This document shows positions 35,418 to 51,829 of a stretch of DNA of 51,829 bases, piece after piece. Made by a program: the position numbers and the translations under genes. Source of the stretch: Gammaproteobacteria bacterium (lineage in GTDB: Bacteria; Pseudomonadota; Gammaproteobacteria; JABXHR01); assembly GCA_013373515.1 (NCBI GenBank), contig JABXHR010000006.1, positions 1 to 51,829 on the forward strand. The letters are read 5' to 3'. Each line of letters starts with the position of its first letter. The stretch's first letter is position 1. The notes under the pieces were generated by a model, which was not told the origin of the DNA, did no database searches, and saw only the letters and a list, made by a program, of their open reading frames with translations.

Positions 35418-36532
35418 ACGAGGCCGTGGGACCGGTTAGATCTTTAGAGGCGGCCTATTACACCGATCCTCAGTATTTCGGCCAAGAGCTACTTGGTGTG
35501 TTCAGTCGTTGCTGGCAATACGCCGGACACCGTTCAGCGCTCCAGCAGCCTGGCGATTACTTCGCATTTGAAATTGCACGTCAGCGCTTGTTCTGCGTGT
35601 TGGACGCCGATGGCGAAGTCAAAACCTTCTACAACGTCTGCCAACATCGCGCCCACGAATTGGTCAGCGGCCAAGGCCACGCCAAGCAGTTGGTGTGTCC
35701 CTATCACGCTTGGGCCTATGACTTATCCGGCCAACTGATCACCGGCCCCAATCTCAACGCCGTCCCCGGCCTCGACAAATCCAAAATCTGTCTAAGCTCG
35801 GTGCGCACCGAAGAGTTCTGCGGGTTTATTTTCGTGAATCTCGACCCGGAAGCTGAGCCAATGGATGTCTGGTATCCCGGCGTTCGCGAACAGCTGCGCG
35901 AGTTTGTGCCCCACATCGACAGCTTGCAGCCGATCAAAACCGTGACCATTCCCGAAAAATGCAACTGGAAGGTATCGGTCGAGAACTACAGCGAGTGCTA
36001 TCACTGCAAGATCAACCACCCCACCTTTGCCACCGGAGTCATCAAACCACAAACCTATGACATCCAACCGCAAGGTTACTGCTTGCGTCACACCACCGAA
36101 TGCCAAAACCTAAACCGCATGACCTACCCCATCGATCTCGATTCCAACGAGCACGCGGGGGATTATTCAAGCTGGTTCTTGTGGCCGACCTTTAGCTTTC
36201 AGGTGTATCCCGGCAATGTGCTCAACACCTATCAGTGGCAAGCACATGACCACGAGAACTGCACGGTTTACCGCCACTGGTACACCATTGATGGACAATT
36301 GTCAGACGTGATCGACAAGCTTGCCGATCAAGATCGTGCGACAACGGTAGAGGAAGATATTGGATTGGTGGAAGCCGTGCAGCGCGGCCTAAATAGCAGA
36401 GGCTACGTGCCGGGACCATTGGTGCTAGACCCCAAATACGGCGTCAATTCAGAGCACTCTATCGCAGCGTTGCAGCAGTGGATGCGCGCGGGCACTGATC
36501 TAAACTTTCAGTACCACGCGGTGGAAGACTAA
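35414..36532 (+). CDS. Rieske non-heme iron oxygenase alpha subunit (choline monooxygenase/N-demethylase-like)
   Basis: CQHR..CPYHAW Rieske ligands; [11 protein letters not shown]....H iron site. Confidence 0.92.
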
Positions 36533-36993
36533 AGGCGCAAACACTCCTTGCGAATCCCCTCTGGAAGGTATTTTGCCATTCTGGAGGGTCGCCATTGCCC
36601 ATTGGCCGCTTGAAAACTACAGCCCGTGTACTGTGCAGTCGCTGGATCTACCACAGCGACCAAGCGACCACCATCGACCGCAGGGTGAATGTTCTGCATA
36701 TGGACCTTAATCGACCAGTTACTATTCTGAAATGGCTTGACGTACTCCACCTTTGACACATATTTCGTTGAGAAATTGGTGTATCCATATTCCGCAGCAA
36801 AATCATCCGGGTGCCCGCCACTGGCCACAAATAACACCGCCTTCTTGCGCGCATCGTCCCAAACGCTAATCGCCTCCACGACTTTGCTTCGCGCCATGTA
36901 GTCCACGTAGGCGGGAAACGCAAAGCTGGCAATGACGCCAATGATGGCAATCACCACCATCAACTCGATCAGTGTGAATCCTTTTTGTTTCAT
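36529..36993 (-). CDS. Type IVa pilin
   Basis: MKQKG|[18 protein letters not shown] class III signal; two C-terminal cysteines; real start ATG 36993. Confidence 0.92.
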
Positions 36994-37132
36994 AGCTCGG
37001 CTGAATAGTTGTTCACACCTGCTAACGGCAATCGGCACATTATCATTAGCTGCAAATAGTGACGGCAAGCACAAGTTTTCGGCTGCGTTAACCATGAAAA
37101 ACTCTGACGCATATAGGGCGATTTTTGTAAGT

Positions 37133-37400
37133 GCAAAGCGCATTCGTCGAAACGGAGCTTTGACATCCCGCTCAAAGCGAATAGCACAATCTCGACGTGT
37201 GACCGAAATTCCATTTTCGGGAAAGCTGAGCCTAAGCGAATCAAACAAGCAAAGCGCATTCGTCGAGACGGAGCTCGACATCCCACCCAAAACGAATAGC
37301 ACAATCTCGACGTGGGAGCGAAATTCCGTTTTCGGGAATTCTGAGCCTAAACGAAGCAAACAAGCGAAGAGCTTCGTCGAGGCGGAACTCGATGTCCCAC
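37133..37400. repeat. Tandem repeat, ~116-bp unit, about 2.3 copies
   Basis: Units start at 37133, 37249 and 37364; 13 differences between units 1 and 2 by manual alignment; conserved internal hairpins. Confidence 0.92.
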
Positions 37401-37502
37401 AATAACGACGTCTGTCGACACAGGAACGCAACAACCAAAGCACATCAGCCGACGCCCTAGGCTACAATATCGCCCTCAGTTTACGACAGAAGTTGCTTGC
37501 CC

Positions 37503-40566: not shown

Positions 40567-42685
40567 CTAATCGAACACCAAATTGCCGATGGACCGATTT
40601 GGCACTTGGATCGGTGAAACGTTGGAACGACGTCGACTGGCGGGACAATTGCCCGTTTCGATATAGGTTAATGCCGCCGCATAAAGTGTTTCATTTACAT
40701 CGCCAAATTCACCATCAATGGGGTCGACAATCTCGCAGGTTGGGGCAATCCCGGCGCTGTAACCGCCTTGGCCAAGTTTGGTGAGAGTCTCGAAGGTAAT
40801 TGCGGCAATGGAATGGCCACAGTAGTCCTCGACCTCCATCCCATAAGGCTTACCGCAGGTGGTTTCACCAATTGATACAACGGTTTGGATATAGGGTTTG
40901 AGTCCGTTAATAATCAGCTCACTGGCTGAGCAAGTTTTTGGCCCGGTCAGCACGATGACTTCGTTTAAATTCAGACCCGCGAAATCACCAACTTCAGAAT
41001 AGCTAGGCTGGCGGCTCGCGTTGTAACGATATTCAAGTAGGGTTTCCCCTGCACGACTAGCCTCTGCGTCTTGGATAATCTTCGACATGATATCCTCAGC
41101 CAATGCTGTACTGCCCCCGCCGTTATCACGAAGATCTTAAATTAAGGCTATCGGGCGCACCATCAATCAGCGCTTGATAAACGCGATCAATTTGATAGTA
41201 GGCCGCCATATTGAATGCATACAAGTTCAGGTAGGCGACTGTCTGATTGGCGCGTTCGGTAAACAGCGGCCCGATAAACGCATCCTGAGCGTATTCAGAT
41301 TTGGGAATTGAAAAAGACCGGTTGTCGGATAGCCGCGTCAATTGAACAGGTTCAGCATCAATTTCACCGACAAACACGACCTCATCACCTCGACGCAGCC
41401 CATATCGATACCCGTTGCCATCCGCGTGTATTCTCGATGCAATCAAGGTGTTGTTTTGGGTTCGTACAAACGCCACACCGATACCGCTGTCCGAGCCTTG
41501 TAGGAAGTCATACCAAAATTCATTGCCAGCGATCCAACTGAATGTATGCCCCTCTTTATCCTGATCGCGTGCATCTAGATTGGCGTAAAAAATATCTCGC
41601 CAGCTTTCGCTAGCGTCGCTGGTGTCAATTTGCGCGGGAAGGTTGGTATTCCAATAATATTTTTCGTGCAGATGCTCGACAATCCAATCCTTTCGAGCCT
41701 CAGAGGAACACATTTCAAAGGTATTCGCCAAGTCGGAAAAGCCCTGAATCTCATTGTCGCTTTCATAAAGGGCCGAATAATTGAAACCCACCGCTTGCCG
41801 ATAAGCCTCAAGCGATTCTGTGTCCTCAATGTTCAAGTTGAAGGCTTGTAGATAAGGTAAGGTTTCGGCAAAAAATTCAGCTTGGGAAGTTTGCGCCGCA
41901 TCGACCAGCTTCGCCACCTGATCGACGGCCTCAAAATAATACCCCCAAAGATCGGTGATATCGCTCGCAGACAGTAAACCGTCATCGATCAAGTTATAGG
42001 CAATACCCAGACTATCCGCGTCGACAAAGCGATCCTCAGGCAGTGTTGCTCGGATGGCGTCTGCTAAATCGACAATGCTCACTTTCGAAGTGTGGGATGC
42101 AAGCTGGCGCAACAGGCGATCCCCAGCAATCTTTGTCGTTTCAGCCTCCCAAAGCTCAGCGGTGTCAACCCAAACACTCAGCTGATCGGCCAATATCGAA
42201 GCAATTTCATTGCCGTAGCGCTCTGCCACCAATAGCGCTTTGACGGTACTACTCTGCACCGGGTCTTCACGCCAGTCGTAGGCATTTGTAATGGTCACGG
42301 TATACGTCAGGGGGCTGTTCGACACTAAAGCGCCGCAAGTTGAATCCCTGCAAATATCCAACAACAGCGTTTCAGTGTGAGTGCCTACTGGTATCTGTGC
42401 AGGAGCGGAAATGTTTAAATGAACTTTTTTGCCAATCGCTCGACCATTTCTAAGACTGATGATATCGGCACTAGGCAGCGATTGCGGCCTGAGCCAATAG
42501 TCGCTGTCAGTTAGCGCAATCGATACTGGCTCAGGCCGCTCGCCATCGCTGATAAATAAGGTAGCCGAGTTGTTTTGCAGCTTTGCCGCACCCACCACAT
42601 CTCCCGTCGATTCCACGCAGCCGCTTACTAACGCCAAACTCACTAGCGCAATCGGAAGTCGCAACCCTAGACGCATTGATTTCAC
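40567..42685 (-). pseudogene. S41-family protease lipoprotein interrupted by a 1-nt frameshift
   Basis: Lipobox VSGC, YYWN, VAYL, then DLRDNGGG in the next frame, TCSASE and GETTCGK; span 2119 nt = 706 codons + 1. Confidence 0.85.
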
Positions 42686-42701: not shown

Positions 42702-43112
42702 TTATGGTAATGCATTTGTTTCGGGTGCGCTCTCGACCTGTAAGATCGGCTGCTCATCTAATTGGGACGATTGCCAGCTCAGCACAAAACTTGAGTCAGG
42801 ATAGGCTTCAAGGACTGTTTTAGGCAGTCGCCAGTCGACATACTGCCAGTACTCACTGTCGGCGCCATAACTCGACAGCTGGCCGACATCGACGTAATAA
42901 ATGGTGTTTTCATCGAGCTGCCACTCAAGCTTAAGCGCTGTCAGCTCGGTGGGTTTGATAAAGAATTTCACCGAATCGGTCCAATCCCGCTCGGCATCTA
43001 ACGCCACTCGCCAACTGCCATCTTCATACTGTGAGGCGGTGCTGAGATCTGCCAGCGGCTCTGCCGCCGCTGGCCCCACAAGCGCAATCAAAAGTGTAAT
43101 GTGTTTGATCAT
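42702..43112 (-). CDS. Small secreted hypothetical protein
   Basis: Signal peptide MIKHITLLIALVGPAAA|E; acidic and Trp-rich; ATGA overlap with the tyrosinase stop. Confidence 0.7.
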   Translation of the reverse strand: MIKHITLLIALVGPAAAEPLADLSTASQYEDGSWRVALDAERDWTDSVKFFIKPTELTALKLEWQLDENTIYYVDVGQLSSYGADSEYWQYVDWRLPKTVLEAYPDSSFVLSWQSSQLDEQPILQVESAPETNALP

Positions 43113-44467
43113 TTCAATACTTCAAGCCTGAGCGCTCCAACGGTCATTGAAGCAGGCGTGTCTCCTACTAAGGGCTCTAACTGCAAGTCAAACGCAATAT
43201 CACCACTCGATGTGCCAATATTTGCAAATGTCAGCAAATGGCCTGATCGGTCGCCGCATTGCATTGCCATTTCCAGCATCCCGAAAAAGCAAATTTTCTG
43301 TGTCTCAAGGATTTGACCGGCTTGTTTTAAAGAAACGGCGATTTGATGGTCGGTGGTGGCTCGCCAGTCTGGACACTCGACCAAAATCCGTAAGCCCCCA
43401 TTGCGATCGATGGTTTCTTGCACGGGCACCGTGGTGGGGGCTTGAGTCGAAATCGCGATCTGAGTTTGCAGCACTTGCTCACTCAGGACTTCATCGATGG
43501 GGCTGATCATCATTCGTCTCGGGGCCGCAAATGCGCGGGCAAATACACTGCCAATCAGCGAATTGTAACGATAGCCTTGATTGAGCAATGCCATTGATTC
43601 TGCAACCGAAATCGAGAGTGCATCGCCATCGCGGTCGAAGAAATTGGCCTGAAATACACGGTTACTCAACTCTGGAAACTGATCCAGTGGCACGCGATTG
43701 CGCGACTCCCAGCTGGCAAACTGTCGATCGACCATGGCATGGTGCAACCAAAATATGGGATCCTCCGCCGCTGTTGGCGGGTTACGCATCTGCCCCCCAA
43801 CTTGGTTGTGAACGAAATTATGGGGGATGTTTTCAATTCCACCGCTCGCACCGGGCCGACCAAATGCGGTAATAAAGTCCACGTTGCTGTAATCAACCCG
43901 TCCGATGCTCAGGGTCGTACCAGGGAGCAATGTGCGACGTGTATCGAACACATCTTGATATAAATAAGCAGGTATTGAGGGCATGTTGTCCCAATCCCAA
44001 TACGGCAAGGCAAAACCCTCATCACCCGTCACTTCGCGGCAAATTTCCTCGAAAAAGTGCAAATAGGCACGATGCCAAGGGCCAAATGCCCAGTTGCCGT
44101 GTGGACAATGGTCATTGTGAATTTGCGCCTGTCGCGACCAGCTACGCGGATCACTGGGTGGCAGCGCTTTCATGCGTCTGACCGCTTCGCGATAGGTATT
44201 GATGATGGGGTGCGTGGCACTTAGACTGCTCAATGGTACCCGCACGCGGTTCGCACCGCTGCGAGGTACCGGATCCGGCGTCGGTGTAGGTGGCACAGGG
44301 GTCGTTGTGGACCCGTCCGGCACCGTTGGGTCAGGCGTTGTGGGCGGGGATGTCGGGGGCAAATCTGTCGCACAGCTGGCTAGCGCCGATGCGCTGACTG
44401 CCATCCCAATACCCGTTTTGATTGCTTTGCGTCGCTGTCGATCGACAGCTTCTTTTTTTCCGTCCAT
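43109..44467 (-). CDS. Tyrosinase/polyphenol oxidase, predicted Tat lipoprotein
   Basis: QRRKAIK plus lipobox LASC; CuA H..CPH...F.PWHRAY; CuB HNFVH..DPIFWLHH; GYRY core end; start ATG 44467. Confidence 0.92.
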   Translation of the reverse strand: MDGKKEAVDRQRRKAIKTGIGMAVSASALASCATDLPPTSPPTTPDPTVPDGSTTTPVPPTPTPDPVPRSGANRVRVPLSSLSATHPIINTYREAVRRMKALPPSDPRSWSRQAQIHNDHCPHGNWAFGPWHRAYLHFFEEICREVTGDEGFALPYWDWDNMPSIPAYLYQDVFDTRRTLLPGTTLSIGRVDYSNVDFITAFGRPGASGGIENIPHNFVHNQVGGQMRNPPTAAEDPIFWLHHAMVDRQFASWESRNRVPLDQFPELSNRVFQANFFDRDGDALSISVAESMALLNQGYRYNSLIGSVFARAFAAPRRMMISPIDEVLSEQVLQTQIAISTQAPTTVPVQETIDRNGGLRILVECPDWRATTDHQIAVSLKQAGQILETQKICFFGMLEMAMQCGDRSGHLLTFANIGTSSGDIAFDLQLEPLVGDTPASMTVGALRLEVLK

Positions 44468-44551
44468 GGATTCTCTCTCGTTAAGTTTAGTTCTCTGCGC
44501 ATCAGCGCTTAGGCACAACCTTAACCCGAAAAACTGAACCAAATATGAGTG

Positions 44552-44597: not shown

Positions 44598-46313
44598 TTA
44601 ATCTGAATAGGCACGATAGAGAGAGAAACGCTGTTGAATGAGTTTGATATCCAACAAGGCTTGGATCATGTAAAACCAGCGATAGCGAACGCCGCGACGC
44701 CGCAAGAACTTGCGGCCTAAACTCAGCGGCAAAGCGAACAACGCCAGCAATTTACTCCGGGCATAGAAATCTTCCAAGCTCACCAGTCTTAGCCCCGATC
44801 CAGGCTCTCCTTGTCGCCCGCCACGGCCCATCAACTGAGTATCGCTTCGCACCGTAAAAATCGGGTCATAAATCAAAATCTGCAAGCCGCCAGCGGCCTC
44901 AACCCCCGCACCGAGCTTGATGTCGGTACCGCGTCCGCCAATATTGGTGGTCACCGTGACTTGGCCTGCCCGCCCAATCTCGTCAACCAATGCCTCTTCT
45001 TCGGCACTCTCGACAAAGGCATCGTAGACGCCACACGCCACACCGGCGCGCTGCAGCTGGCGCTCAATCGACCGTGCCGACTCAGGTGATTCGGCGCCGA
45101 CGAGCGTAGGCCGGCCCTGCGATTTTGCGGTCGCGATTTGGGACAAAAGAAAGTCAAATTTTTGATCCCGCGTGGAAAACAGTCGCAGCCCCGCGTCGCT
45201 AAAGACATGATTTTTAAGTTTTAAGCGATAGATGCCCGCCCCATACAGACGCAAAAGATCCACATCACAAAAATTGAGTGATCCGCTGCACCCCCCGACC
45301 CAGCTGTAGCGCTGAAAAAGATTGAAAAACCAAATCTTTTGCGCATTTCGCGAGAATGGCGTTAGCGGCACGGCTTCGATTAGTTCGACAATGCTGTGAT
45401 ACACCCCACCGAGCTTACGATCCGGTTCACGGCGCCCACTAAACTGGTCGAGCAACTCGATCTTTTCCTCGCGCACCACATAATGTCGATCGCGTTTGTA
45501 GTTCATGGCGACGTAAATCACTTGATCGACCAAATAACTAACAGCCAAGTAATCAAGTGGCTCATCGGCAAACTGTCGCTCAAGCCACTGCAGAAATTTG
45601 ATTTTTTCCGAGGCATTGAGCGCCTCACCACGTGTGCCGAGCCAGTTCATTTGGTCGACATAGCGATAGGCAATTTGCAGTTGCTGCTGCAGTGGGCCGT
45701 CCTGGTATTGCTCGGACATCACAAACGGAATACGCGTCTCGTCCAGCAGTAAACTGTCCGCTTCATCTATTAACACCACCGCATTGCTAAATTCGGTTTT
45801 TGCGCCCGAAAACAACGCAGAGGCCAAGGATTTGGCCGAGGTGTAAATTACCGTGTGTTTCTGCGCAATCCCATCCGTGCCGCTGACCACGCCCAAATCC
45901 GCGAACAAGGGCCGAGATTTACCGTAATCTCGATGAGCAAGGTATTCATTAGAGGTCAGGATAGTGGCCGCCTTACCAGCGCGTGCAATCAATGCTGCAG
46001 CCATCAACAAACACACAGACTTGCCCGAGCCAGTCTCCAACTCGACAAAGTTGCCGCGCGACATGAGCAGCGCCGTATGTACCTGTCGCGGCGTTGGCAA
46101 AAAGCCATAATGCCGCTGGATGACTCGGCCAATTTCACTGAGCATGGCGATCAACTCGGGCGCATCGAACGCACACCCCAGATAGTCATACACGCCATCC
46201 GGCGGTGGATCGGTAGACTGCAAATAAGCAATGGACTGCAACTGACGCACCAGCTTAGAAGCGCGCTGGCGGTGGCGCAGAAGATCCGTCAGTGAGTGCA
46301 GCTGGCCATACAC
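44598..46313 (-). CDS. Accessory truncated SecA-like ATPase (SecA_DEAD protein)
   Basis: ELETGSGKS, TSNEYLAHRD, IDEADS.L.DE.R.P, TNIGGRGTDI, QLMGRGGRQGEPG, SLED; only 571 aa. Confidence 0.92.
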   Translation of the reverse strand: MYGQLHSLTDLLRHRQRASKLVRQLQSIAYLQSTDPPPDGVYDYLGCAFDAPELIAMLSEIGRVIQRHYGFLPTPRQVHTALLMSRGNFVELETGSGKSVCLLMAAALIARAGKAATILTSNEYLAHRDYGKSRPLFADLGVVSGTDGIAQKHTVIYTSAKSLASALFSGAKTEFSNAVVLIDEADSLLLDETRIPFVMSEQYQDGPLQQQLQIAYRYVDQMNWLGTRGEALNASEKIKFLQWLERQFADEPLDYLAVSYLVDQVIYVAMNYKRDRHYVVREEKIELLDQFSGRREPDRKLGGVYHSIVELIEAVPLTPFSRNAQKIWFFNLFQRYSWVGGCSGSLNFCDVDLLRLYGAGIYRLKLKNHVFSDAGLRLFSTRDQKFDFLLSQIATAKSQGRPTLVGAESPESARSIERQLQRAGVACGVYDAFVESAEEEALVDEIGRAGQVTVTTNIGGRGTDIKLGAGVEAAGGLQILIYDPIFTVRSDTQLMGRGGRQGEPGSGLRLVSLEDFYARSKLLALFALPLSLGRKFLRRRGVRYRWFYMIQALLDIKLIQQRFSLYRAYSD

Positions 46314-48442
46314 TAGCGGTTACTCGCCGTCAGCCAGTTCCAGAAACGGACATACAATGGCTGGTCACGAGACCACCAAGTCAGCCTAAGCGGCATTTGT
46401 TCACGCAGGACTTTCTCGCAGTTAAGCTGCAAGCGAAATACCGTTACCGGCTCCCGTGTGACCAGCTGACTGTTTTGTAATTCGTGTGCCAGCCCCGAGG
46501 CCAACATCGCATTTTGATAACGCACATCCACGGCTGTGCGCAGCCCACCAATCTCACCGATCTGTTCAACCACGCAGCCGAGGTTCTGCAACCCAGCGTC
46601 AATACTTGCCGGTTCACCGGCCTTAATCGCCGCGATGGCATCTAACTTTGCCCGCGGGATCAGCATTCGGACCGTGCCCGTGGACTGTTCGCTTTGGTTG
46701 ATGATGCCAATGCGCTGCCCGGCACTGAGCCATTGCCCCTCATTGACCGGGGTCTGAAAGAAAAACAAACCATCCATCGGCGCCGTGATGACGTAGTCGG
46801 TCATTTTCTCGTTTAAGACAGACAGGGTTTCCTCTAACTGAGCGCGCTTTAAATCCACCATCTGCCGATCTGCGGCTTCAGACAAATACAGGGCTTGGGT
46901 GTTTAACGCCGTGAGTGTGGCATTTTGCTCCTCGACCAAATTGTTGAGCTGATAAGGATCGAGCCTCACCAGCACATCGCCTGCGCGAACAAAATCGCCG
47001 TCCTGCACCTCAAGCGACACCACTTCCGCCAGCGTTTGCGAGCTGACCAATCGCTCGGAGCGAATGTCGACAAGCCCGTGAACTTCACTGCGCCAGGGCA
47101 AAGGCACCACCGCCAGCGCCACCAGCAAGCCTGCCAGCGCCAACAACATGATTCCGCGCATGATTCGAGTCTCCTCCTTGTAAGGGGACATCACCAAATG
47201 AACCACCGCCTTTTTAAGCGGCATCAGAAAGATCAATAAAAAGGCGAGTAACAGGTAGAAATACCCCACCAATTCATTAAGCGAAAAGACATATTTCGCG
47301 ATGATCAACGTCACCGCAAAGGCGTAGATGCTACTGGCCACGCCATACACCCCCAGCAACGCGGGTCGACCGGAGAAATAGGTTTTGTCGAGCGCCTGCG
47401 CCGCGCCCACCCAACGCGCCATGGTCGAGGTTAAAAACTTTCGGCTGCGTTGATATAAATCTGGATAGTCGACTACCTCAGATAACGCATAGTAGGCATC
47501 GAATTTCAAAAGCGGATTGCCGTTAAAGAACAAGCTCGAGACCACCACAATGTACACCGCGTTGGCAAACACCGTCTGGTAGAAGCTATCTTCCACCCAC
47601 AAGAAACCCAAAATACACAAAAATCCCAGCAAGATATCAGACATCATCCCGGCCAGAATAATCATCAACCGAGAACCTTTTGAGGGATTCATTACCGCTT
47701 CTGAAGCGTCTACAAATGGAATGGGGGCAAGGATTAGAATCATGACCCCGATCTTTTTGACATGCACGCCGACATAACGCGCCGCCAACGCATGTGCGCT
47801 CTCATGCAGCAACTTACTCATCAGATAGGTCAAAAACAACAATCCGATCTGGGTGTAGCTGCTCAAATTAGGGAGATAGGGCCGCAGCGCAGCAAAATTC
47901 AAATAAAACGCCACTCCAAACGCACCACCGAGCAGCACAAACACGGCCCACACCGAGGTCGTCGATAGATATTTTGCAGATGGCCTGACCTTGTTAAACC
48001 AATTGGCGAGCGCCACCGAACCCAGCCTAAAGAAAAACAAAGACCACAGTTTTTGCGACAGTGGTTTGCGCTCGGATTCAAGCTGAATCCGCTGCTCAAT
48101 CGGCGATGCGGTGGTATCCGCGCGGCGAGACTGCAAATAGCCCCCGTCAAACAAACTGACAATGGCTTGATAAAACTCGATCTCAGTCGGCAGGCCATCA
48201 TCCAGAAAATCGACACGCCGATTCCAAATATCAATCGCCGCCTCACCCGAGAACAGCGAGCGCAACATGGGAATCAGTCCGCCGGTGACTTCCAGCCCCT
48301 TACAACACTCGGTGTTGTAAATCATCATCACTCGACGGCCTTCCCCGTCGAGACGATAATTAAACGTCACCCAAGGCGAAGGCCGAAACGCACCGCGACC
48401 GAAGCGGTGAATGTCGTTGGAGAAGTAGTTCTCAACCGCCAT
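46313..48442 (-). CDS. M50 (site-2) zinc peptidase fused to a HlyD/MFP domain
   Basis: HESAH, NGNPLLKFDAYY, many TM segments, then V.DGDFVRAGDVLVRL lipoyl-like motif, coiled coil and ITAPMDG. Confidence 0.9.
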   Translation of the reverse strand: MAVENYFSNDIHRFGRGAFRPSPWVTFNYRLDGEGRRVMMIYNTECCKGLEVTGGLIPMLRSLFSGEAAIDIWNRRVDFLDDGLPTEIEFYQAIVSLFDGGYLQSRRADTTASPIEQRIQLESERKPLSQKLWSLFFFRLGSVALANWFNKVRPSAKYLSTTSVWAVFVLLGGAFGVAFYLNFAALRPYLPNLSSYTQIGLLFLTYLMSKLLHESAHALAARYVGVHVKKIGVMILILAPIPFVDASEAVMNPSKGSRLMIILAGMMSDILLGFLCILGFLWVEDSFYQTVFANAVYIVVVSSLFFNGNPLLKFDAYYALSEVVDYPDLYQRSRKFLTSTMARWVGAAQALDKTYFSGRPALLGVYGVASSIYAFAVTLIIAKYVFSLNELVGYFYLLLAFLLIFLMPLKKAVVHLVMSPYKEETRIMRGIMLLALAGLLVALAVVPLPWRSEVHGLVDIRSERLVSSQTLAEVVSLEVQDGDFVRAGDVLVRLDPYQLNNLVEEQNATLTALNTQALYLSEAADRQMVDLKRAQLEETLSVLNEKMTDYVITAPMDGLFFFQTPVNEGQWLSAGQRIGIINQSEQSTGTVRMLIPRAKLDAIAAIKAGEPASIDAGLQNLGCVVEQIGEIGGLRTAVDVRYQNAMLASGLAHELQNSQLVTREPVTVFRLQLNCEKVLREQMPLRLTWWSRDQPLYVRFWNWLTASNR

Positions 48443-48445
48443 GGT

Positions 48446-50134
48446 TTATTCGTAGCGCTTGGTCAGCTTGAGCCAAATCCGCCAGGCATGACGCTGAATC
48501 CATCGCCACGCCTCAACCTTGCCGGTTTGAAGATAACCATCCAAGTCCGTGCCGGGCACCAAAGCCAAGGCATCGCCATGATCCAACTTAATCGGAATCG
48601 AATGCGGGCGCTCATTGGCATCAACCACCACGGAGGCAATCGCAGAAACGCGAGCATCGAAATAGGCTTGATCTAGCCCCTTGCGGCGCAGTTTAACCGG
48701 CATGTCAACCGCCGCAAAATCCACCTCACGCTCTGGCACAAAGCCCAAAATATCGCCGCTGACACCCGGAGATACCACATAGAATCGTTCGCCAACATTG
48801 ACCGAATTGCCCAAGAAATTTTGCCGCTCCCCCGATACCACATAGCCTGTGAGCGTGGAGCGAATGGTAGAGCGCTCGATTTGCGATTGGATTTGGGCAA
48901 TTTTGGTTTCGATGACGCCAATATCTGCGCGCGCCAACTCGGCTTGTGCAAGATCGCCCGCCGCGACAGAGAAGTTCACCGTCGATTCCTTTGAGGCGCG
49001 TTCACCCTCCAGCTCAAGCAAACGCAGCTGCAAATCCACCGTATCGAGCTGGATCAAAATATCGCCCTTATTCACGGCATCGCCAAGATTCTTGGTGGCC
49101 TCGACCACCAATCCCGGCACAGAGCTAGAGACCACTTGATCTTCAGTGGCTTGCACAATCGCATCGACCGGCACCCGATACTGCAATTGATACAGCACCA
49201 ACCACGCCACCAAAGCGGCTATCAGTGATATGTTCAGCAGCCAGCCCAGCCGCAATTTTCGCCCGCCGGTACCCACCAAACGCATGCCGATGCGCCGCCA
49301 GAATGAAGACAAATCGTACCCAAGCTGTGCGAAAGGCCAAGACAACGCAACATTGGTGCGCAGACCAGCAGCCACAGGGGGATCATTGGATTGATGACGA
49401 ATCAGTAACAGCACCAAGCGTTTGCGCTCACTGCGCACTCGGCTGCCAAAAAACACCACGTCCACTTGATGCTCCACTGCAAATTCACGCACACTCCTAG
49501 GCGCCAACTGCAGGCTTTGCACATCGTGAAAACTATTCCATCCTTCAAAAGTCGATAGCTCGCTGAGCATTAAATTAAGCCGGCCACGAAAGCGCCCACT
49601 CAATTCATCAGCGTCTTTGGTGGCGCCCGATAACTTGAAATGTCGAACCGACTGCGCTTTGACTTCCGCCGCCGCAGCATTACTGTAGCCGAAGGTTTTG
49701 CAGAGTTTGTTGAGCCACTCTTTGATCAGATCATTGCGTTCGTCGCGAGCGGAAAGGTAATTGATGCTGTCATCATCGAGCTCTGTCAGTGGCAAACTCG
49801 GGGCGGCCGAAAGTGGCTGCGCCGCCACCGCACGCGCGACGGATTTTAACCAGCGCAACTTGGTGGGATGCTTACGCACTTGCCCCAGCACAACCACCAG
49901 TTCCCCAACCAAAAAGGCAGACACATAAGCGCTTTGGTCGGCCAATGTTAAATCTTGCTCGGGTTCGCGTGCAGGGTCGACCGTGGCTCGCCACTGAGAG
50001 ATTCCCGCTTGTAAACCCGGGCTCCCGGAGCAGTGCGTCAGCGGCTGATCTAAGGTGTTGGCATACCCCACATAGCAAAATTCACGATCTGTCGTGGCAA
50101 TCGCCCCTAATAAAGCAACAACGGACTGACTCAT
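48446..50134 (-). CDS. HlyD-family membrane fusion protein with a large N-terminal cytoplasmic (possibly GAF-like) region
   Basis: One TM near aa 300, GDAVNKGDILIQLD, coiled coil, IRSTLTGYVVSG. Confidence 0.82.
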   Translation of the reverse strand: MSQSVVALLGAIATTDREFCYVGYANTLDQPLTHCSGSPGLQAGISQWRATVDPAREPEQDLTLADQSAYVSAFLVGELVVVLGQVRKHPTKLRWLKSVARAVAAQPLSAAPSLPLTELDDDSINYLSARDERNDLIKEWLNKLCKTFGYSNAAAAEVKAQSVRHFKLSGATKDADELSGRFRGRLNLMLSELSTFEGWNSFHDVQSLQLAPRSVREFAVEHQVDVVFFGSRVRSERKRLVLLLIRHQSNDPPVAAGLRTNVALSWPFAQLGYDLSSFWRRIGMRLVGTGGRKLRLGWLLNISLIAALVAWLVLYQLQYRVPVDAIVQATEDQVVSSSVPGLVVEATKNLGDAVNKGDILIQLDTVDLQLRLLELEGERASKESTVNFSVAAGDLAQAELARADIGVIETKIAQIQSQIERSTIRSTLTGYVVSGERQNFLGNSVNVGERFYVVSPGVSGDILGFVPEREVDFAAVDMPVKLRRKGLDQAYFDARVSAIASVVVDANERPHSIPIKLDHGDALALVPGTDLDGYLQTGKVEAWRWIQRHAWRIWLKLTKRYE

Positions 50135-50934
50135 GAATTAAAAACGATATAACCGTTAATGCCGAGCAATGACATATCTACCGAATCAGGAATACTGAAA
50201 TAGAAGGTTCGCTGTTGGTTTTGCTTATCAGGCACTGCCGAGGCATGTGAAAAGGTGACCGGAATTTTCTGACCGCCTAACAACACCTCAAAGGTCCGAT
50301 CGCTGCTGGCCATGGCCCATTGGTTTTGTGGAACACCCACCTCAAAAAAGCGTGCCTTGTGGTCGATAATGCGTGCCAAAACTTCACCCGGCTTCACCCA
50401 CTGCCCTTTTTCGACCATCACCTCGGCCACAAAGCCTTCAATGGGAGATTTCACAGTCAGATCGTCTAGCCGCTGCTGCCACTGCGTCATCTCTAGTTTG
50501 GCTTTTTCGCGCTCTCGCACAGCACTAGCCATCTCTGTCTTCAGCTGCTGGGAGCGCATCAGCGCATTTTCGACATCAGACGCGGTGATTGATCCCATAC
50601 CGCCAGCGGCCTTGCGGTAGCGCTGGTATTGCTTGTCGGCAGAGCGCAATTGCGCGCCGAGCGCATCAATCACGGATGAATCATTCGCGTACAGCGCAGC
50701 ACTCTCCAATGCGGTTTGCGCAAGGCGCGGATCAAACTGCACCATCGGCTGGCCCACCGATACCAAGTCGCCCTCTTCGACCACCACATCAACCACTTGC
50801 CCGCCTTCGCGATGAATCAATTCAACGTCATATTGGCTTTCAATCGAGCCAATCAAGCGCACCTCAGCCGCAGACAATGGCAATGCCATCGCCAGAATTA
50901 AACCTCCACATAACGCCTTAAGCACGGCTGACAT
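50131..50934 (-). CDS. Periplasmic adaptor (RND-type MFP)
   Basis: Signal peptide, VEEGDLV..GQ, coiled coil, VKSPIEG.V, GQWVKPGE. Confidence 0.88.
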   Translation of the reverse strand: MSAVLKALCGGLILAMALPLSAAEVRLIGSIESQYDVELIHREGGQVVDVVVEEGDLVSVGQPMVQFDPRLAQTALESAALYANDSSVIDALGAQLRSADKQYQRYRKAAGGMGSITASDVENALMRSQQLKTEMASAVREREKAKLEMTQWQQRLDDLTVKSPIEGFVAEVMVEKGQWVKPGEVLARIIDHKARFFEVGVPQNQWAMASSDRTFEVLLGGQKIPVTFSHASAVPDKQNQQRTFYFSIPDSVDMSLLGINGYIVFNS

Positions 50935-51829
50935 ACCCCCTATAGATTGAAATTAAATCCGCCGAATCACGGTAGATCTCGATTAAGCGCTTTTCGATTT
51001 CAATGGCGTCGAGCTGGAACTGCAAAAGCTGCGACATACTGACATTGCCCAACCGTTGTGCCTGCTCAAGTTGCGCCAACAGCGTCTGGTTTTCGCCACG
51101 AATGGTCATTGCCAAATCAATGCGCTCGATCAATGACGCCGCCAATGATTGAAATGATTCGATGTTTTTATGGAATATCGTCTCAGTGCGCTCGAGATTC
51201 TGCGTTTCGGTCAAGAGCTGGTTGCTAAGTGACGCCAACTTCTGCCGACGCTGACGATCGAAACCAATCGTCGACTCAAACTCCAGCCCCACATACCAAT
51301 CGGCATAGGTTTTATCCTCTGCGGCTTTTTGGATATCTTCGCGACGATAGGCAATGGAGCCCTGACTAATCGTGCCCACCAGATCCAAGCGAGGGCCCGT
51401 GGATTTGCGGTAACTTTCAAGCTTTGAAGCCGCCGAACGATAGCGAGCCAAGCCTTCCACGTACATGGCCCAATCTTGCAAATCTCGTCCATTGAGCTCA
51501 GTCGACAAGACTTGCAAAGCGGCCTTAGGCGATTGGAACACCAAATCTTGGCTATTGACGTCCAGCTGCAGCTCGCGATTGATATCTAACACCGCGGTTT
51601 GCAATAAATGATTGAGTTCCAATAGATCCGACTGATTGCTCATCCGGCGTAACTGGAGCAACTTGAGTTGCATCGGGTTGACCAACCCCGCATCCAAGTT
51701 CTGCTCCATGCCCACAACCAATTGCGAAATGATCGATTGCTCGCGCTGCAGTATTTGCGACTCTTGCTCACCGATCACAATGCGCCAATACAAATCACTG
51801 GCAAAAGACGCCGCCTCAGCGCGCCGCGA
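50918..51829 (-). CDS. TolC-family outer membrane protein (5' end outside the window)
   Basis: Frame stays open to the window edge; helical repeats, PRLDLVG and WYVGLEF beta-strands, G.VS...LL motif; adjacent to MFP genes. Confidence 0.75.
   Translation of the reverse strand, partial: SRRAEAASFASDLYWRIVIGEQESQILQREQSIISQLVVGMEQNLDAGLVNPMQLKLLQLRRMSNQSDLLELNHLLQTAVLDINRELQLDVNSQDLVFQSPKAALQVLSTELNGRDLQDWAMYVEGLARYRSAASKLESYRKSTGPRLDLVGTISQGSIAYRREDIQKAAEDKTYADWYVGLEFESTIGFDRQRRQKLASLSNQLLTETQNLERTETIFHKNIESFQSLAASLIERIDLAMTIRGENQTLLAQLEQAQRLGNVSMSQLLQFQLDAIEIEKRLIEIYRDSADLISIYRGYVSRA

What the first reader, a model, noticed from the sequence alone, without database searches (positions are those of the whole stretch)
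44598..51829. Type I-like secretion locus with a SecA-like motor and an M50 peptidase in place of an ABC transporter
Seen: five tightly coupled minus-strand genes (17-nt overlap, ATGA, 3-nt gap, TAGTG): TolC, MFP, large MFP, M50-MFP fusion and a SecA-like ATPase. No ABC or RND pump is visible. Known: classical type I secretion needs ABC + MFP + TolC. As I recall, SecA_DEAD/T1SS-like gene associations have been noted by comparative genomics in Planctomycetes, Verrucomicrobia and some Proteobacteria, but I know of no mechanistic characterisation. Inference: the M50 domain forms the inner-membrane port and leader peptidase, the SecA paralogue supplies ATP-driven pushing, and mixed MFPs bridge to TolC. 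The substrate is probably a large protein encoded beyond the right edge.
Basis: partly seen in the sequence, partly recalled or inferred. Interest (0 to 1): 0.88.

Follow-up and report, generated by a model that had tools for sequence, protein, structure and literature searches.

The report
ABC-less TolC export operon, SecA-like motor
This is a complete five-gene operon for an outer-membrane channel, three periplasmic adaptor proteins (one fused to a membrane protease) and a shortened SecA-like ATPase, a little-studied gene module that in other bacteria sits beside giant surface proteins and probably exports them.

Summary
In detail: five coupled minus-strand genes encode TolC, a small MFP, a large MFP, an M50-MFP fusion and a wing-less SecA paralogue, with no ABC or RND gene. 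A 20-nt in-frame overlap joins the window's right end to contig C74. That completes TolC and shows only gnd and an intergenic region upstream, so the operon is whole and the guessed substrate beyond the edge is not there.

The module was described by comparative genomics in 2015 (Kamneva et al., PMC4452313). I found no mechanistic study. This copy is a very divergent member (25-33% identity or less).

The session added three things:
- The M50-MFP family carries an N-terminal PqqD-like peptide-recognition domain.
- In related loci the module lies beside giant proteins (8,500-10,000 aa where measured), often RTX-rich, that begin with a basic stretch and a LEPRxLLSAD leader (NCBIfam LEPR-XLL). 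SapC or DUF3467 genes often lie between.
- This genome has two giant genes with that leader motif and one SapC gene, on other contigs.

Best reading: an ABC-independent, type-I-like exporter for leader-bearing giant proteins. The cargo link is well supported for the family. The mechanism is inferred.

The parts
50918..51829 (-). C-terminal 303 aa of a TolC-like outer-membrane factor. It is the first gene of the operon; its first 188 aa lie on contig C74 (2609-3172).
   Evidence: Pfam OEP 8.1e-06. Exact 20-nt in-frame overlap with the C74 end. A custom HMM built from the N-terminal halves of 6 module-linked TolCs hits only the C74 ORF among all contig-end ORFs, E 4e-07.
50131..50934 (-). Small membrane-fusion protein (267 aa) with an N-terminal signal or anchor segment.
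   Evidence: HlyD_3 2.7e-15, Biotin_lipoyl_2 1e-09. RND_mfp 1.8e-25, 89.6 bits against a cut-off of 94.9. Hydrophobic segment at residues 1-25.
48446..50134 (-). Large membrane-fusion protein (562 aa): cytoplasmic N-domain (about residues 1-290, probably a divergent GAF), one TM segment (294-318), periplasmic HlyD part.
   Evidence: HlyD_D23 2.2e-08 at residues 326-517. Only residues ~280-557 align to the GAF-HlyD homologues. No Pfam hit for residues 1-289. Atlas leads point to GAF: feature scores 0.87-0.90, and a structure match to a GAF-HlyD cluster over residues 108-283 with TM 0.45.
46313..48442 (-). Three-part fusion (709 aa): PqqD-like recognition domain, M50 intramembrane metalloprotease domain, HlyD membrane-fusion domain.
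   Evidence: Peptidase_M50 7.9e-07, HlyD_3 1.8e-06. daptide_HExxH 1.7e-27, below its cut-off. The family profile hits PqqD 3g2b at 4.8e-04, MJ0392 S2P at 0.0022 and MacA at 1.1e-15. AF2 model pLDDT 76.6.
48128..48391 (-). PqqD-like (RRE-type) domain, residues 18-105 of the fusion; presumed cytoplasmic.
   Evidence: AF2 gives four strands then three helices, block pLDDT 71-91. Profile positions 14-102 match PqqD. PF05402 is precomputed in 23 of 71 listed homologues. No Pfam PqqD hit for this sequence alone.
47792..47806 (-). HExxH zinc motif of the M50 domain (residues 213-217).
   Evidence: Read; coordinates. H213, E214 and H217 are invariant in 35 of 35 aligned homologues.
47495..47524 (-). 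Second S2P-type motif, NxNPxxxxD (residues 307-316), carrying the third metal ligand Asp315.
   Evidence: N307, N309, P310 and D315 are invariant in 35 of 35; coordinates.
44598..46313 (-). Short SecA paralogue (571 aa): NBD1, preprotein cross-linking domain and NBD2 only. It has no scaffold, wing, two-helix finger or C-terminal linker.
   Evidence: Pfam. It aligns to T. maritima SecA residues 62-162 and 245-591 only. NCBIfam SecA models score 230 bits or less against cut-offs of 725 or more. Walker A at 46017-46037, Walker B/DEAD at 45738-45773, GRGTD at 44919-44948, GRxGRQG at 44796-44828.

Best explanation
The operon encodes a complete, ABC-independent, type-I-like trans-envelope exporter of the 'secondary SecA_DEAD' kind. 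It probably handles giant surface or secreted proteins that carry an N-terminal basic + LEPRxLLSAD-type leader.

Proposed steps:
1. The cytoplasmic PqqD-like domain of the M50-MFP fusion binds the leader.
2. The wing-less SecA paralogue, which keeps the ATPase motor and the polypeptide clamp, docks on the inner-membrane assembly and feeds the unfolded chain N to C.
3. The M50 domain, whose catalytic motifs are intact, removes the leader in or at the membrane.
4. The three MFPs form the periplasmic tunnel to TolC. One is fused to M50, one carries a GAF-like cytoplasmic sensor domain, and one is small.
5. SapC or DUF3467 proteins act as cargo-side accessories.

Shown here: the gene content, the intact motifs, the completeness of the operon, and the family-wide linkage to SecA-like genes and to leader-bearing giants.

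Inferred: every physical step, the direction of transport, the cleavage, and that this genome's unlinked giants (contigs C140, C20) are the cargo.
For: Architecture and motifs.

The operon is complete and no ABC, RND or giant gene lies upstream. A 17,728-nt contig of run X1 (possibly the source sample) runs 3,155 letters past 51829, against 3,154 letters of C74 outside the overlap.

The genome has a separate housekeeping SecA.

Survey of 80 loci chosen by the M50-MFP marker (597 of 600 candidate stretches were relatives):
- SecA-like gene directly after M50-MFP in 55 of 62 loci with at least 2 kb of room.
- GAF-MFP gene upstream in 67 of 68 loci with room.
- In 4 of 5 genomes tested among the 7 loci without an adjacent SecA-like gene, a 661-673 aa paralogue lies elsewhere.
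- ABC ATPase within 10 kb in 4 of 80, all on the other strand and more than 3.9 kb from the nearest module gene.
- RND in 0 of 86 loci.

Cargo:
- Same-strand ORF of 1500 aa or more in 31 of 47 loci of at least 15 kb.
- RTX repeats in 2 of 3 giants scanned with Pfam; the giants are Cys-free and G/D/T/S-rich.
- 7 of 8 downstream same-strand giants of 1500 aa or more with intact N-termini carry the leader motif.
- NF012209 LEPR-XLL hits: L088 2.6e-07, L041 0.0086.
- In 5 of 5 genomes tested, the best LEPR-XLL hit opens an 8,538-10,162 aa frame that ends just upstream of the module.

Class sample of 201 genomes, one per family:
- 12 of 15 LEPR-XLL-positive genomes have the M50-MFP (E<1e-100), against 15 of 186 negative ones.
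- All 10 genomes with a listed short SecA paralogue are M50-MFP-positive.

This genome:
- A leader regex finds exactly 2 six-frame hits with at least 300 aa downstream. Both are at the N-termini of giant ORFs: C140, 2669 aa, and C20, at least 3013 aa.
- C140 reads giant-SapC-giant.

Fold of fusion residues 1-445 with the C140 leader: weak support. Median score 0.48, best of 3 controls 0.00. In the tool's calibration the mark was reached by 58 of 80 solved complexes and 2 of 110 mismatches, but scores of 0.60 or under by only 7 of the 80 and by both mismatches. The runs agree in at least 62% of contacts; the partner's pLDDT is at least 47.
Against: No experiment exists for any member of the module.

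M50/S2P domains are not known to conduct proteins.

This SecA paralogue lacks the two-helix finger that canonical SecA inserts into SecY.

A related M50-MFP subfamily has no SecA paralogue in 4 of 5 genomes (G171, G168, G094, G083); the fifth, G067, has only a SecA_DEAD hit inside a 3513-aa frame. So the motor is not universal.

In this genome:
- The cargo link is indirect. The giants are on other contigs, with no overlap to the window.
- The NF012209 model finds nothing at E<=10.
- The two C140 giants have no Pfam family (C140g1 scanned over 3,999 of its 4,806 aa) and only 2 and 1 RTX-type motif matches by regex. The C20 giant has only two marginal Pfam hits.
- The genome also has two classical ABC T1SS loci.

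This copy's PqqD and GAF domains are not detected by Pfam on the sequence alone.

The complex score is a weak pass.

Many giants carry C-terminal RTX blocks, which fit classical C-terminal signals.

Sixteen of 47 long loci have no same-strand giant.
Confidence: 0.55

Rival explanations
1. Retention, release or quality-control device rather than the exporter. An unlinked ABC type I system exports the giant protein C-terminus first. The PqqD-M50-MFP holds the N-terminal leader at the inner membrane and cleaves it to release or mature the protein, under control of the GAF protein. This would be analogous to LapD/LapG control of LapA (recalled). The SecA-like ATPase only unfolds or hands over the N-terminus.
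For: Many linked giants have RTX repeats typical of C-terminal-signal substrates. This genome has several ABC_membrane exporters and two classical T1SS loci. An M50-MFP subfamily works without a SecA paralogue. A GAF sensor domain is present in the partner MFP of 3 of 4 homologues scanned.
Against: ABC genes lie within 10 kb in only 4 of 80 loci and are never in the operon. Three MFPs plus, in 8 of 80 loci and here, a dedicated TolC look like a full conduit. The candidate giants of this genome lack RTX Pfam hits.
Confidence: 0.2
2. Exporter and maturase for a small ribosomal peptide (RiPP-like). A PqqD-type recognition element plus an M50 leader peptidase, as in daptide and YydH/LiaK systems, would be coupled to MFP/TolC. 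The giant genes would be neighbours for another reason.
For: The best NCBIfam hits of the M50 part are RiPP proteases: daptide_HExxH 1.7e-27 and RiPP_HExxH_LiaK 8.3e-07. The family has a PqqD-like domain. NCBI names some homologues 'PqqD family peptide modification chaperone'.
Against: Both NCBIfam scores are far below their cut-offs: 96.5 against 300, and 28.9 against 225. No conserved small-peptide gene cluster emerged from clustering ORFs of 60 aa or more. The recurrent small families were SapC (15 loci) and DUF3467 (9 loci), of 110-290 aa. Shorter ORFs were not examined. The conserved leader sits on giant proteins.
Confidence: 0.08
3. Signalling or envelope-maintenance device (regulated intramembrane proteolysis with a GAF sensor) that secretes nothing. 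The MFP and TolC parts would serve only as anchors or for small-molecule efflux.
For: S2P proteases classically act in signalling (established knowledge). GAF domains are sensors. In M. extorquens only the GAF gene was reported as expressed in exponential phase (PMC4452313, section 17).
Against: It explains neither the SecA-type polypeptide motor with its clamp domain nor the linkage to leader-bearing giants.
Confidence: 0.05

Closest known systems
Secondary SecA_DEAD / type-I-like module of Kamneva, Poudel & Ward 2015 (PMC4452313; abstract and sections 15-17 read)
   Same: The same four core proteins: a wing-less SecA_DEAD protein, a Peptidase_M50-HlyD protein, a large HlyD protein (GAF-HlyD in the paper) and a HlyD/biotin-lipoyl protein. 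OEP is sometimes present and there is no ABC. The paper makes the same proposal: SecA_DEAD as the ATPase and M50 as the membrane part.
   Different: This copy is very divergent: best identity 31-33% for SecA-like, 28% for M50-MFP, and 25% in the tree alignment, on a very long branch. Its SecA-like protein is about 95 aa shorter than usual, its GAF domain is not detectable by sequence, and TolC comes first. A search of the paper's main text found 'giant', 'adhesin', 'large protein' and 'PqqD' nowhere, and 'substrate' only once, in general background on T1SS. Its supplements could not be opened.
Classical type I secretion (HlyB-HlyD-TolC)
   Same: MFP and TolC components. Cys-free, acidic, often RTX-rich giant substrates. 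One-step trans-envelope logic.
   Different: There is no ABC transporter. There are three different MFPs. ATPase of the SecA/DEAD type is encoded as a separate soluble protein. The conserved signal is N-terminal rather than only C-terminal.
Peptidase-containing ABC exporters of bacteriocins (C39 peptidase-TMD-NBD; recalled)
   Same: The logic is the same: a leader-recognition and protease module is built into the inner-membrane exporter and coupled to an ATPase.
   Different: The folds are unrelated (PqqD + M50 + SecA-like against C39 + ABC), the cargo is thousands of residues long, and the MFP is fused.
Accessory SecA2 systems of Gram-positive bacteria and mycobacteria
   Same: A second SecA paralogue dedicated to special cargo. 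NCBIfam SecA2 models give 4.5e-64 and 1.1e-55.
   Different: The scores are far below the cut-offs. SecA2 proteins keep the scaffold and wing and work with SecY or SecY2. Here those parts are missing and the partners are MFP and TolC.
Giant Omnitrophota and Actinobacteria proteins with embedded SecA_DEAD domains (bioRxiv 10.1101/2023.11.21.568195; passages read)
   Same: A wing-less SecA_DEAD plus preprotein-binding domain associated with giant proteins, and suggested to export them.
   Different: There the motor is part of the giant protein and no M50-MFP module is mentioned. Here the motor is a separate 571-aa protein in an MFP/TolC operon.
sapC-giant-tolC-giant locus of Chlorobium chlorochromatii (bioRxiv 10.64898/2026.03.19.712371; passages read) and the Campylobacter fetus sapCDEF system (recalled)
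   Same: A SapC gene beside giant exported proteins that 'lack known signals', with a dedicated TolC. This genome's C140 reads giant-SapC-giant.
   Different: That preprint proposes SapC, TolC and an unlinked HlyD as the route. It mentions one recently acquired secA but does not connect it, or any M50-MFP, to the giants.

Membership tests
Secondary SecA_DEAD / T1SS-like module (Kamneva 2015) | SecA_DEAD protein without a wing/scaffold domain, in addition to a canonical SecA | tested here: met
   (no match beyond NBD2). Housekeeping SecA lies on C80 in a 924-aa frame.
Secondary SecA_DEAD / T1SS-like module (Kamneva 2015) | Adjacent Peptidase_M50-HlyD fusion protein | tested here: met
   It overlaps the SecA-like start by 1 nt.
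Secondary SecA_DEAD / T1SS-like module (Kamneva 2015) | GAF-HlyD protein | tested here: inconclusive
   The HlyD part and its position are met. The N-domain has no Pfam GAF hit and no sequence similarity to the homologues' GAF parts. Only Atlas leads point to GAF.
Secondary SecA_DEAD / T1SS-like module (Kamneva 2015) | Further HlyD/biotin-lipoyl protein; no ABC in the locus | tested here: met
   The upstream contig C74 holds only gnd and a 128-aa ORF.
Classical type I secretion system | ABC exporter (ABC_membrane + ABC_tran) in or beside the operon | tested here: not met
   ABC exporters exist only on other contigs.
Canonical SecA / SecA2 | Helical scaffold, wing and two-helix finger; score above the NCBIfam cut-off | tested here: not met
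   Best score 230.5 bits against a cut-off of 862. The alignment to solved SecA ends at NBD2.
Canonical SecA / SecA2 | Walker A, Walker B/DEAD and arginine-finger motifs of the DEAD motor | tested here: met
   Read and located. Which motif is which is from recall of SecA literature.
Site-2 protease family M50 | HExxH and NxxPxxxxD metal-binding motifs in membrane helices | tested here: met
   (invariant in 35 of 35). Pfam 29.1 bits against a cut-off of 27.2. Helical membrane domain in the AF2 model.
RiPP recognition element (PqqD-like) | Three-stranded sheet plus three-helix winged-helix fold; similarity to PqqD | tested here: inconclusive
   The family profile hits PqqD 3g2b at 4.8e-04. PF05402 is present in 23 of 71 homologues. 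The AF2 topology fits. This sequence alone has no Pfam hit, and the whole-model fold search returned only MFP matches.
Daptide / YydH-type RiPP leader peptidase | Score above the NCBIfam equivalog cut-off; adjacent precursor peptide | tested here: not met
   96.5 against 300 bits, and 28.9 against 225 bits. No conserved small-precursor family among ORFs of 60 aa or more.
LEPR-XLL (NF012209) giant proteins, as candidate cargo in this genome | Match to the NF012209 model at the N-terminus | tested here: not met
   No hit at E<=10 in this genome. A looser regex finds the motif at 2 giant N-termini and nowhere else.

The most novel reading that the evidence does not exclude
The module is a distinct, widespread secretion pathway for the largest bacterial proteins. 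An N-terminal basic + LEPRxLLSAD leader is read by a PqqD-type recognition domain that has been borrowed from peptide natural-product biosynthesis. The leader is clipped by the fused M50 protease. The chain is threaded N to C by a wing-less SecA motor directly into a hetero-oligomeric MFP/TolC tunnel. Neither SecYEG nor any ABC transporter takes part.
Probability: 0.35. Interest if true: 0.9.

Novelty: new member of a known kind. Interest (0 to 1): 0.7.

Why it matters
How bacteria export proteins of 8,000-14,000 residues is poorly understood. The giant symbiosis proteins of Chlorobium chlorochromatii are said to lack known signals. This module has been in print since 2015 only as a gene-neighbourhood observation.

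That turns the module into a testable hypothesis, with named residues to mutate and named cargo to follow.

If the model holds, it would add a secretion route that joins parts of the Sec, type I and RiPP toolkits.

Tried and rejected
- Extending the contig by overlaps of 21-127 nt found nothing. The true overlap is 20 nt.
- C140 and C20 could not be joined to anything.
- I considered the tail of C140 as the TolC start and rejected it, because no open frame runs off that end.
- tblastn with 4 module-linked TolCs found no TolC N-terminus. Only the custom HMM did.
- I considered an RND operon cut at the start of C144 as a possible upstream neighbour. I rejected it because of the C74 join and because 0 of 86 loci hold an RND.
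- The search for related loci found nothing in three attempts: the SecA-like protein in genome contigs, and the large MFP and the M50-MFP in metagenome contigs.
- The fold search of the whole M50-MFP model returned only MFP structures.
- SapC has no PDB relative by sequence and none by fold: 0 matches at E<=0.001 for a model of pLDDT 89.7. DUF3467 has no PDB relative by sequence. The roles I give these two proteins are therefore guesses.
- Promoter and terminator scans were no better than shuffles.
- The downstream tyrosinase, the 136-aa ORF and the S41 genes are not part of the module: 0 of 80 loci have homologues.
- The tree was the quick version, because the careful search did not finish. 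The window's row sits on a 4.68 branch, so its placement is unsure.
- Runs X2, X3 and X6 hold only about 90%-identical relatives. The RNA-library contigs do not prove transcription.
- Paper searches that found no mechanistic work or cargo link. For the two papers containing 'LEPR-XLL' I saw only the listing.
Kamneva's S2 Table and S5 Fig may list further neighbourhood families, including large proteins.
- The counts include the unpublished genome G151, which is one of the 27 M50-MFP-positive genomes. Unpublished G040 appears only as a carrier of a housekeeping SecA.


Full report
OBSERVATION. Pfam and NCBIfam give the following, in order of transcription:
- a TolC-like OEP protein (303 aa, cut by the contig end);
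- a 267-aa MFP;
- a 562-aa MFP whose HlyD part is confined to residues ~300-520;
- a 709-aa Peptidase_M50 + HlyD fusion;
- a 571-aa protein with SecA_DEAD, SecA P-loop and part of the SecA preprotein cross-linking domain.

No ABC or RND domain occurs in these genes or in the ten neighbouring ORFs scanned, which are metabolic genes.

THE CONTIG END. The window is a whole contig, C215, of a 287-contig assembly.
- I built an HMM from the N-terminal halves of six module-linked TolCs and searched all contig-end ORFs. It hit only one, at the 3' end of the 3,174-nt contig C74 (E 4e-07).
- That end overlaps the reverse complement of the window's right end by exactly 20 nt, and the overlap is in frame. 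The C74 ORF is 188 aa, has a signal peptide, and ends with the six residues that begin the window's fragment.
- Only 18 of 574 contig ends have any 20-mer successor, and each has just one.
- Independently, a 17,728-nt contig of run X1 (possibly the source sample) runs 3,155 letters past position 51829. C74 has 3,154 letters outside the overlap.
- C74 holds gnd, a 128-aa ORF on the other strand, and about 610 nt of intergenic DNA before the TolC start.

The operon is therefore complete, TolC is its first gene, and nothing upstream is an ABC, an RND or a giant gene. The guess that the substrate lies beyond the edge is wrong.

WHAT IS KNOWN. The recalled paper exists: Kamneva, Poudel & Ward 2015 (PMC4452313; abstract and sections 15-17 read). 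[quoted passage not shown] These sit beside three HlyD-bearing protein families: M50-HlyD, GAF-HlyD and HlyD/biotin-lipoyl. OEP is sometimes present and no ABC is. The paper suggests SecA_DEAD as the ATPase and the M50 protein as the membrane component, and says the biological role is unknown. A search of its main text found 'giant', 'adhesin', 'large protein' and 'PqqD' nowhere, and 'substrate' only once, in general background on T1SS. Nine library searches found no mechanistic follow-up.

ANATOMY.

SecA paralogue:
- It aligns to solved SecA only over NBD1, the cross-linking domain and NBD2 (T. maritima residues 62-162 and 245-591).
- It keeps the Walker A, Walker B/DEAD, GRGTD and GRxGRQG motifs.
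- The scaffold, wing, two-helix finger and C-terminal linker are absent.
- A canonical SecA lies on contig C80.

Fusion protein:
- HExxH and NxNPxxxxD are invariant in 35 of 35 aligned homologues.
- The AF2 model (pLDDT 76.6) shows a helical membrane domain followed by an MFP.
- N-terminal residues 18-105 fold as four strands and three helices.
- The family profile matches PqqD (3g2b, 4.8e-04), an S2P (3b4r, 0.0022) and MacA (1.1e-15).
- PF05402 is precomputed in 23 of 71 listed homologues, and NCBI names some of them PqqD-family chaperones.
- This copy alone gives no Pfam PqqD hit.

562-aa MFP:
- It has one TM segment (294-318) after a ~290-aa cytoplasmic domain.
- That domain has no Pfam hit and no sequence similarity to the GAF parts of homologues.
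- Atlas leads suggest GAF.
- Of four homologues scanned, three have clear GAF domains.

COMPARATIVE SURVEY. I used a pattern from the M50-MFP alignment. They come from Alpha-, Beta- and Gammaproteobacteria, Desulfobacterota, Myxococcota, Planctomycetota, Verrucomicrobiota, Nitrospirota, Omnitrophota, Bacteroidota and Victivallales. The usual gene order is GAF-MFP, M50-MFP, SecA-like, then often a small MFP.

| Feature | Count |
|---|---|
| SecA-like gene directly after M50-MFP, loci with at least 2 kb of room | 55 of 62 |
| GAF-MFP gene before M50-MFP, loci with room | 67 of 68 |
| Short SecA paralogue elsewhere, genomes tested among the 7 loci without an adjacent one | 4 of 5 |
| ABC ATPase within 10 kb (all on the other strand, more than 3.9 kb from the nearest module gene) | 4 of 80 |
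| RND gene in the locus | 0 of 86 |
| TolC-like gene in the locus | 8 of 80 |

Three loci (L020, L067, L074) share this window's order, TolC-MFP-large MFP-M50-MFP.

The window's proteins are outliers. The best non-self identity is 31-33% for SecA-like and 28% for M50-MFP. In a quick tree the window's M50-MFP is at most 25% identical to any row and sits on a 4.68 branch. It falls outside the SecA-less clade (100*), beside the main clade (88).

A separate subfamily has the order ~500-aa gene, MFP, MFP, M50-MFP and has no SecA paralogue in 4 of 5 genomes. The fifth genome has a SecA_DEAD hit inside a 3,513-aa frame.

CARGO.
- In 31 of 47 loci of at least 15 kb there is a same-strand ORF of 1500 aa or more. 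Nearly all of these run off the locus edge.
- The giants are Cys-free and G/D/T/S-rich. Two of three scanned have RTX repeats.
- SapC (15 loci) or DUF3467 (9 loci) genes recur in these loci, most often next to the large-MFP gene.
- Where the N-terminus lies inside the locus, 7 of 8 downstream giants of 1500 aa or more begin with a basic stretch followed by a LEPRxLLSAD-type motif. Two divergently transcribed giants (L020, L078) have it too.
- This is NCBIfam NF012209, LEPR-XLL, whose short name is LEPR-8K: L088 2.6e-07, L041 0.0086.
- In 5 of 5 genomes tested, the best NF012209 hit opens a frame of 8,538-10,162 aa. By my arithmetic on the coordinates, that frame ends just upstream of the module.

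Class sample of 201 genomes, one per family:
- M50-MFP at E<1e-100 in 27 (this count includes the unpublished genome G151).
- LEPR-XLL above its cut-off in 15.
- Of those 15, 12 are M50-MFP-positive, against 15 of the 186 LEPR-negative genomes.
- All 10 genomes with a listed short SecA paralogue are M50-MFP-positive (41 weaker matches were not listed).
- Related genomes are not independent, so I give no P value.

THIS GENOME.
- NF012209 finds nothing here.
- A looser regex finds exactly two six-frame hits with at least 300 aa downstream. Both lie 21-35 residues into giant ORFs: C140 (2,669 aa, complete) and C20 (at least 3,013 aa, cut by the contig end).
- C140 reads giant (at least 4,806 aa, 5' cut), SapC, giant.
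- The two C140 giants have no Pfam family (C140g1 scanned over 3,999 of its 4,806 aa). The C20 giant has only two marginal Pfam hits.
- The C140 giants are weakly similar to module-linked giants in four loci (L023, L031, L059, L088).
- Its SapC is 56-60% identical to the SapCs of L018, L059 and L088.
- The genome also has two classical ABC type I loci beside RTX frames of 8,401 and 5,499 aa.
- A fold of fusion residues 1-445 (with zinc) and the C140 leader gave weak support: median 0.48, best of 3 controls 0.00. In the tool's calibration the mark was reached by 58 of 80 solved complexes and 2 of 110 mismatches, but scores of 0.60 or under by only 7 of those 80 and by both mismatches. The runs agree in at least 62% of contacts, and the partner's pLDDT is at least 47.

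RELATED PRINT.
- A 2023 preprint reports wing-less SecA_DEAD and preprotein-binding domains embedded in giant Omnitrophota and Actinobacteria proteins, and suggests they export the giant itself (passages read).
- A 2026 preprint on Chlorobium chlorochromatii reports the order sapC, giant, tolC, giant. It says the giants lack known signals and notes one recently acquired secA (passages read).
- Neither preprint connects these features to the M50-MFP module.

MECHANISM. See Best explanation. Shown: the architecture, the intact motifs, a complete ABC-free operon, and family-wide linkage to the SecA paralogue and to leader-bearing giants. Inferred: binding of the leader by the PqqD-like domain, cleavage by M50, N-to-C threading by the SecA-like motor, a mixed MFP tunnel, and regulation through the GAF-like domain. 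The main rival keeps an unlinked ABC exporter and makes the module a retention-and-release or maturation device.

LIMITS.
- The organism's class is inferred to be Gammaproteobacteria. The only basis is that its SecA is 57% identical both to same-class genomes and to a Gammaproteobacteria MAG.
- RNA-library contigs about 90% identical to the operon exist in one study. One of 4,983 nt spans 47781-51829 and runs 933 nt beyond. They do not prove transcription.

Noticed in passing
window 40567-42685 (-): An S41-type peptidase appears split into two ORFs in different frames. The 519-aa ORF carries Pept_S41_N and the 178-aa ORF carries Peptidase_S41 / S41_Gfo1087. They are separated by about 22 nt, so this is a possible frameshift or pseudogene.
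   Followed up: no
window 42702-44542 (-): A tyrosinase gene (Pfam 2.8e-34) and a 136-aa ORF with no family lie 55 nt downstream of the SecA-like gene on the same strand. Homologues are found in 0 of 80 related loci, so they are probably unrelated to the module.
   Followed up: partly
G000 contigs C165 and C217: Two classical type I loci (OEP and ABC_membrane genes) lie beside RTX-repeat open frames of 8,401 and 5,499 aa. Two small contigs, C219 and C196, consist of RTX repeats.
   Followed up: partly
L142-L147 (genomes G067, G171, G168, G094, G083): A distinct M50-MFP subfamily has the order ~500-aa gene, MFP, MFP, M50-MFP with no SecA paralogue in the genome. In G067 a LEPR-motif ORF and a giant gene are transcribed divergently from it.
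   Followed up: partly
G067:C1:1316628-1317260: A SecA_DEAD match (62 bits) lies inside a 3,513-aa open frame. This would be a giant protein with an embedded SecA-like domain, of the kind reported for Omnitrophota.
   Followed up: no
G000:C140:14442-15194 (SapC): The SapC family protein folds confidently (pLDDT 89.7) but has no PDB fold match at E<=0.001. It may be an undescribed fold.
   Followed up: partly
window 36529-37443 (-): The prokaryotic N-methylation (type IV pilin-like) motif sits at residues 151-176 of a 304-aa ORF, which suggests the true start is far downstream of the first start codon.
   Followed up: no
window 44598-51829, runs X2, X3, X6: Contigs about 90% identical to the operon occur in two metatranscriptome runs of one study and in one metagenome of another. 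A sister lineage therefore carries the same gene order.
   Followed up: partly
G000, all contig ends: Nine pairs of contig ends overlap by exactly 20 nt (18 of 574 ends), so a few more joins of this assembly could be made.
   Followed up: no
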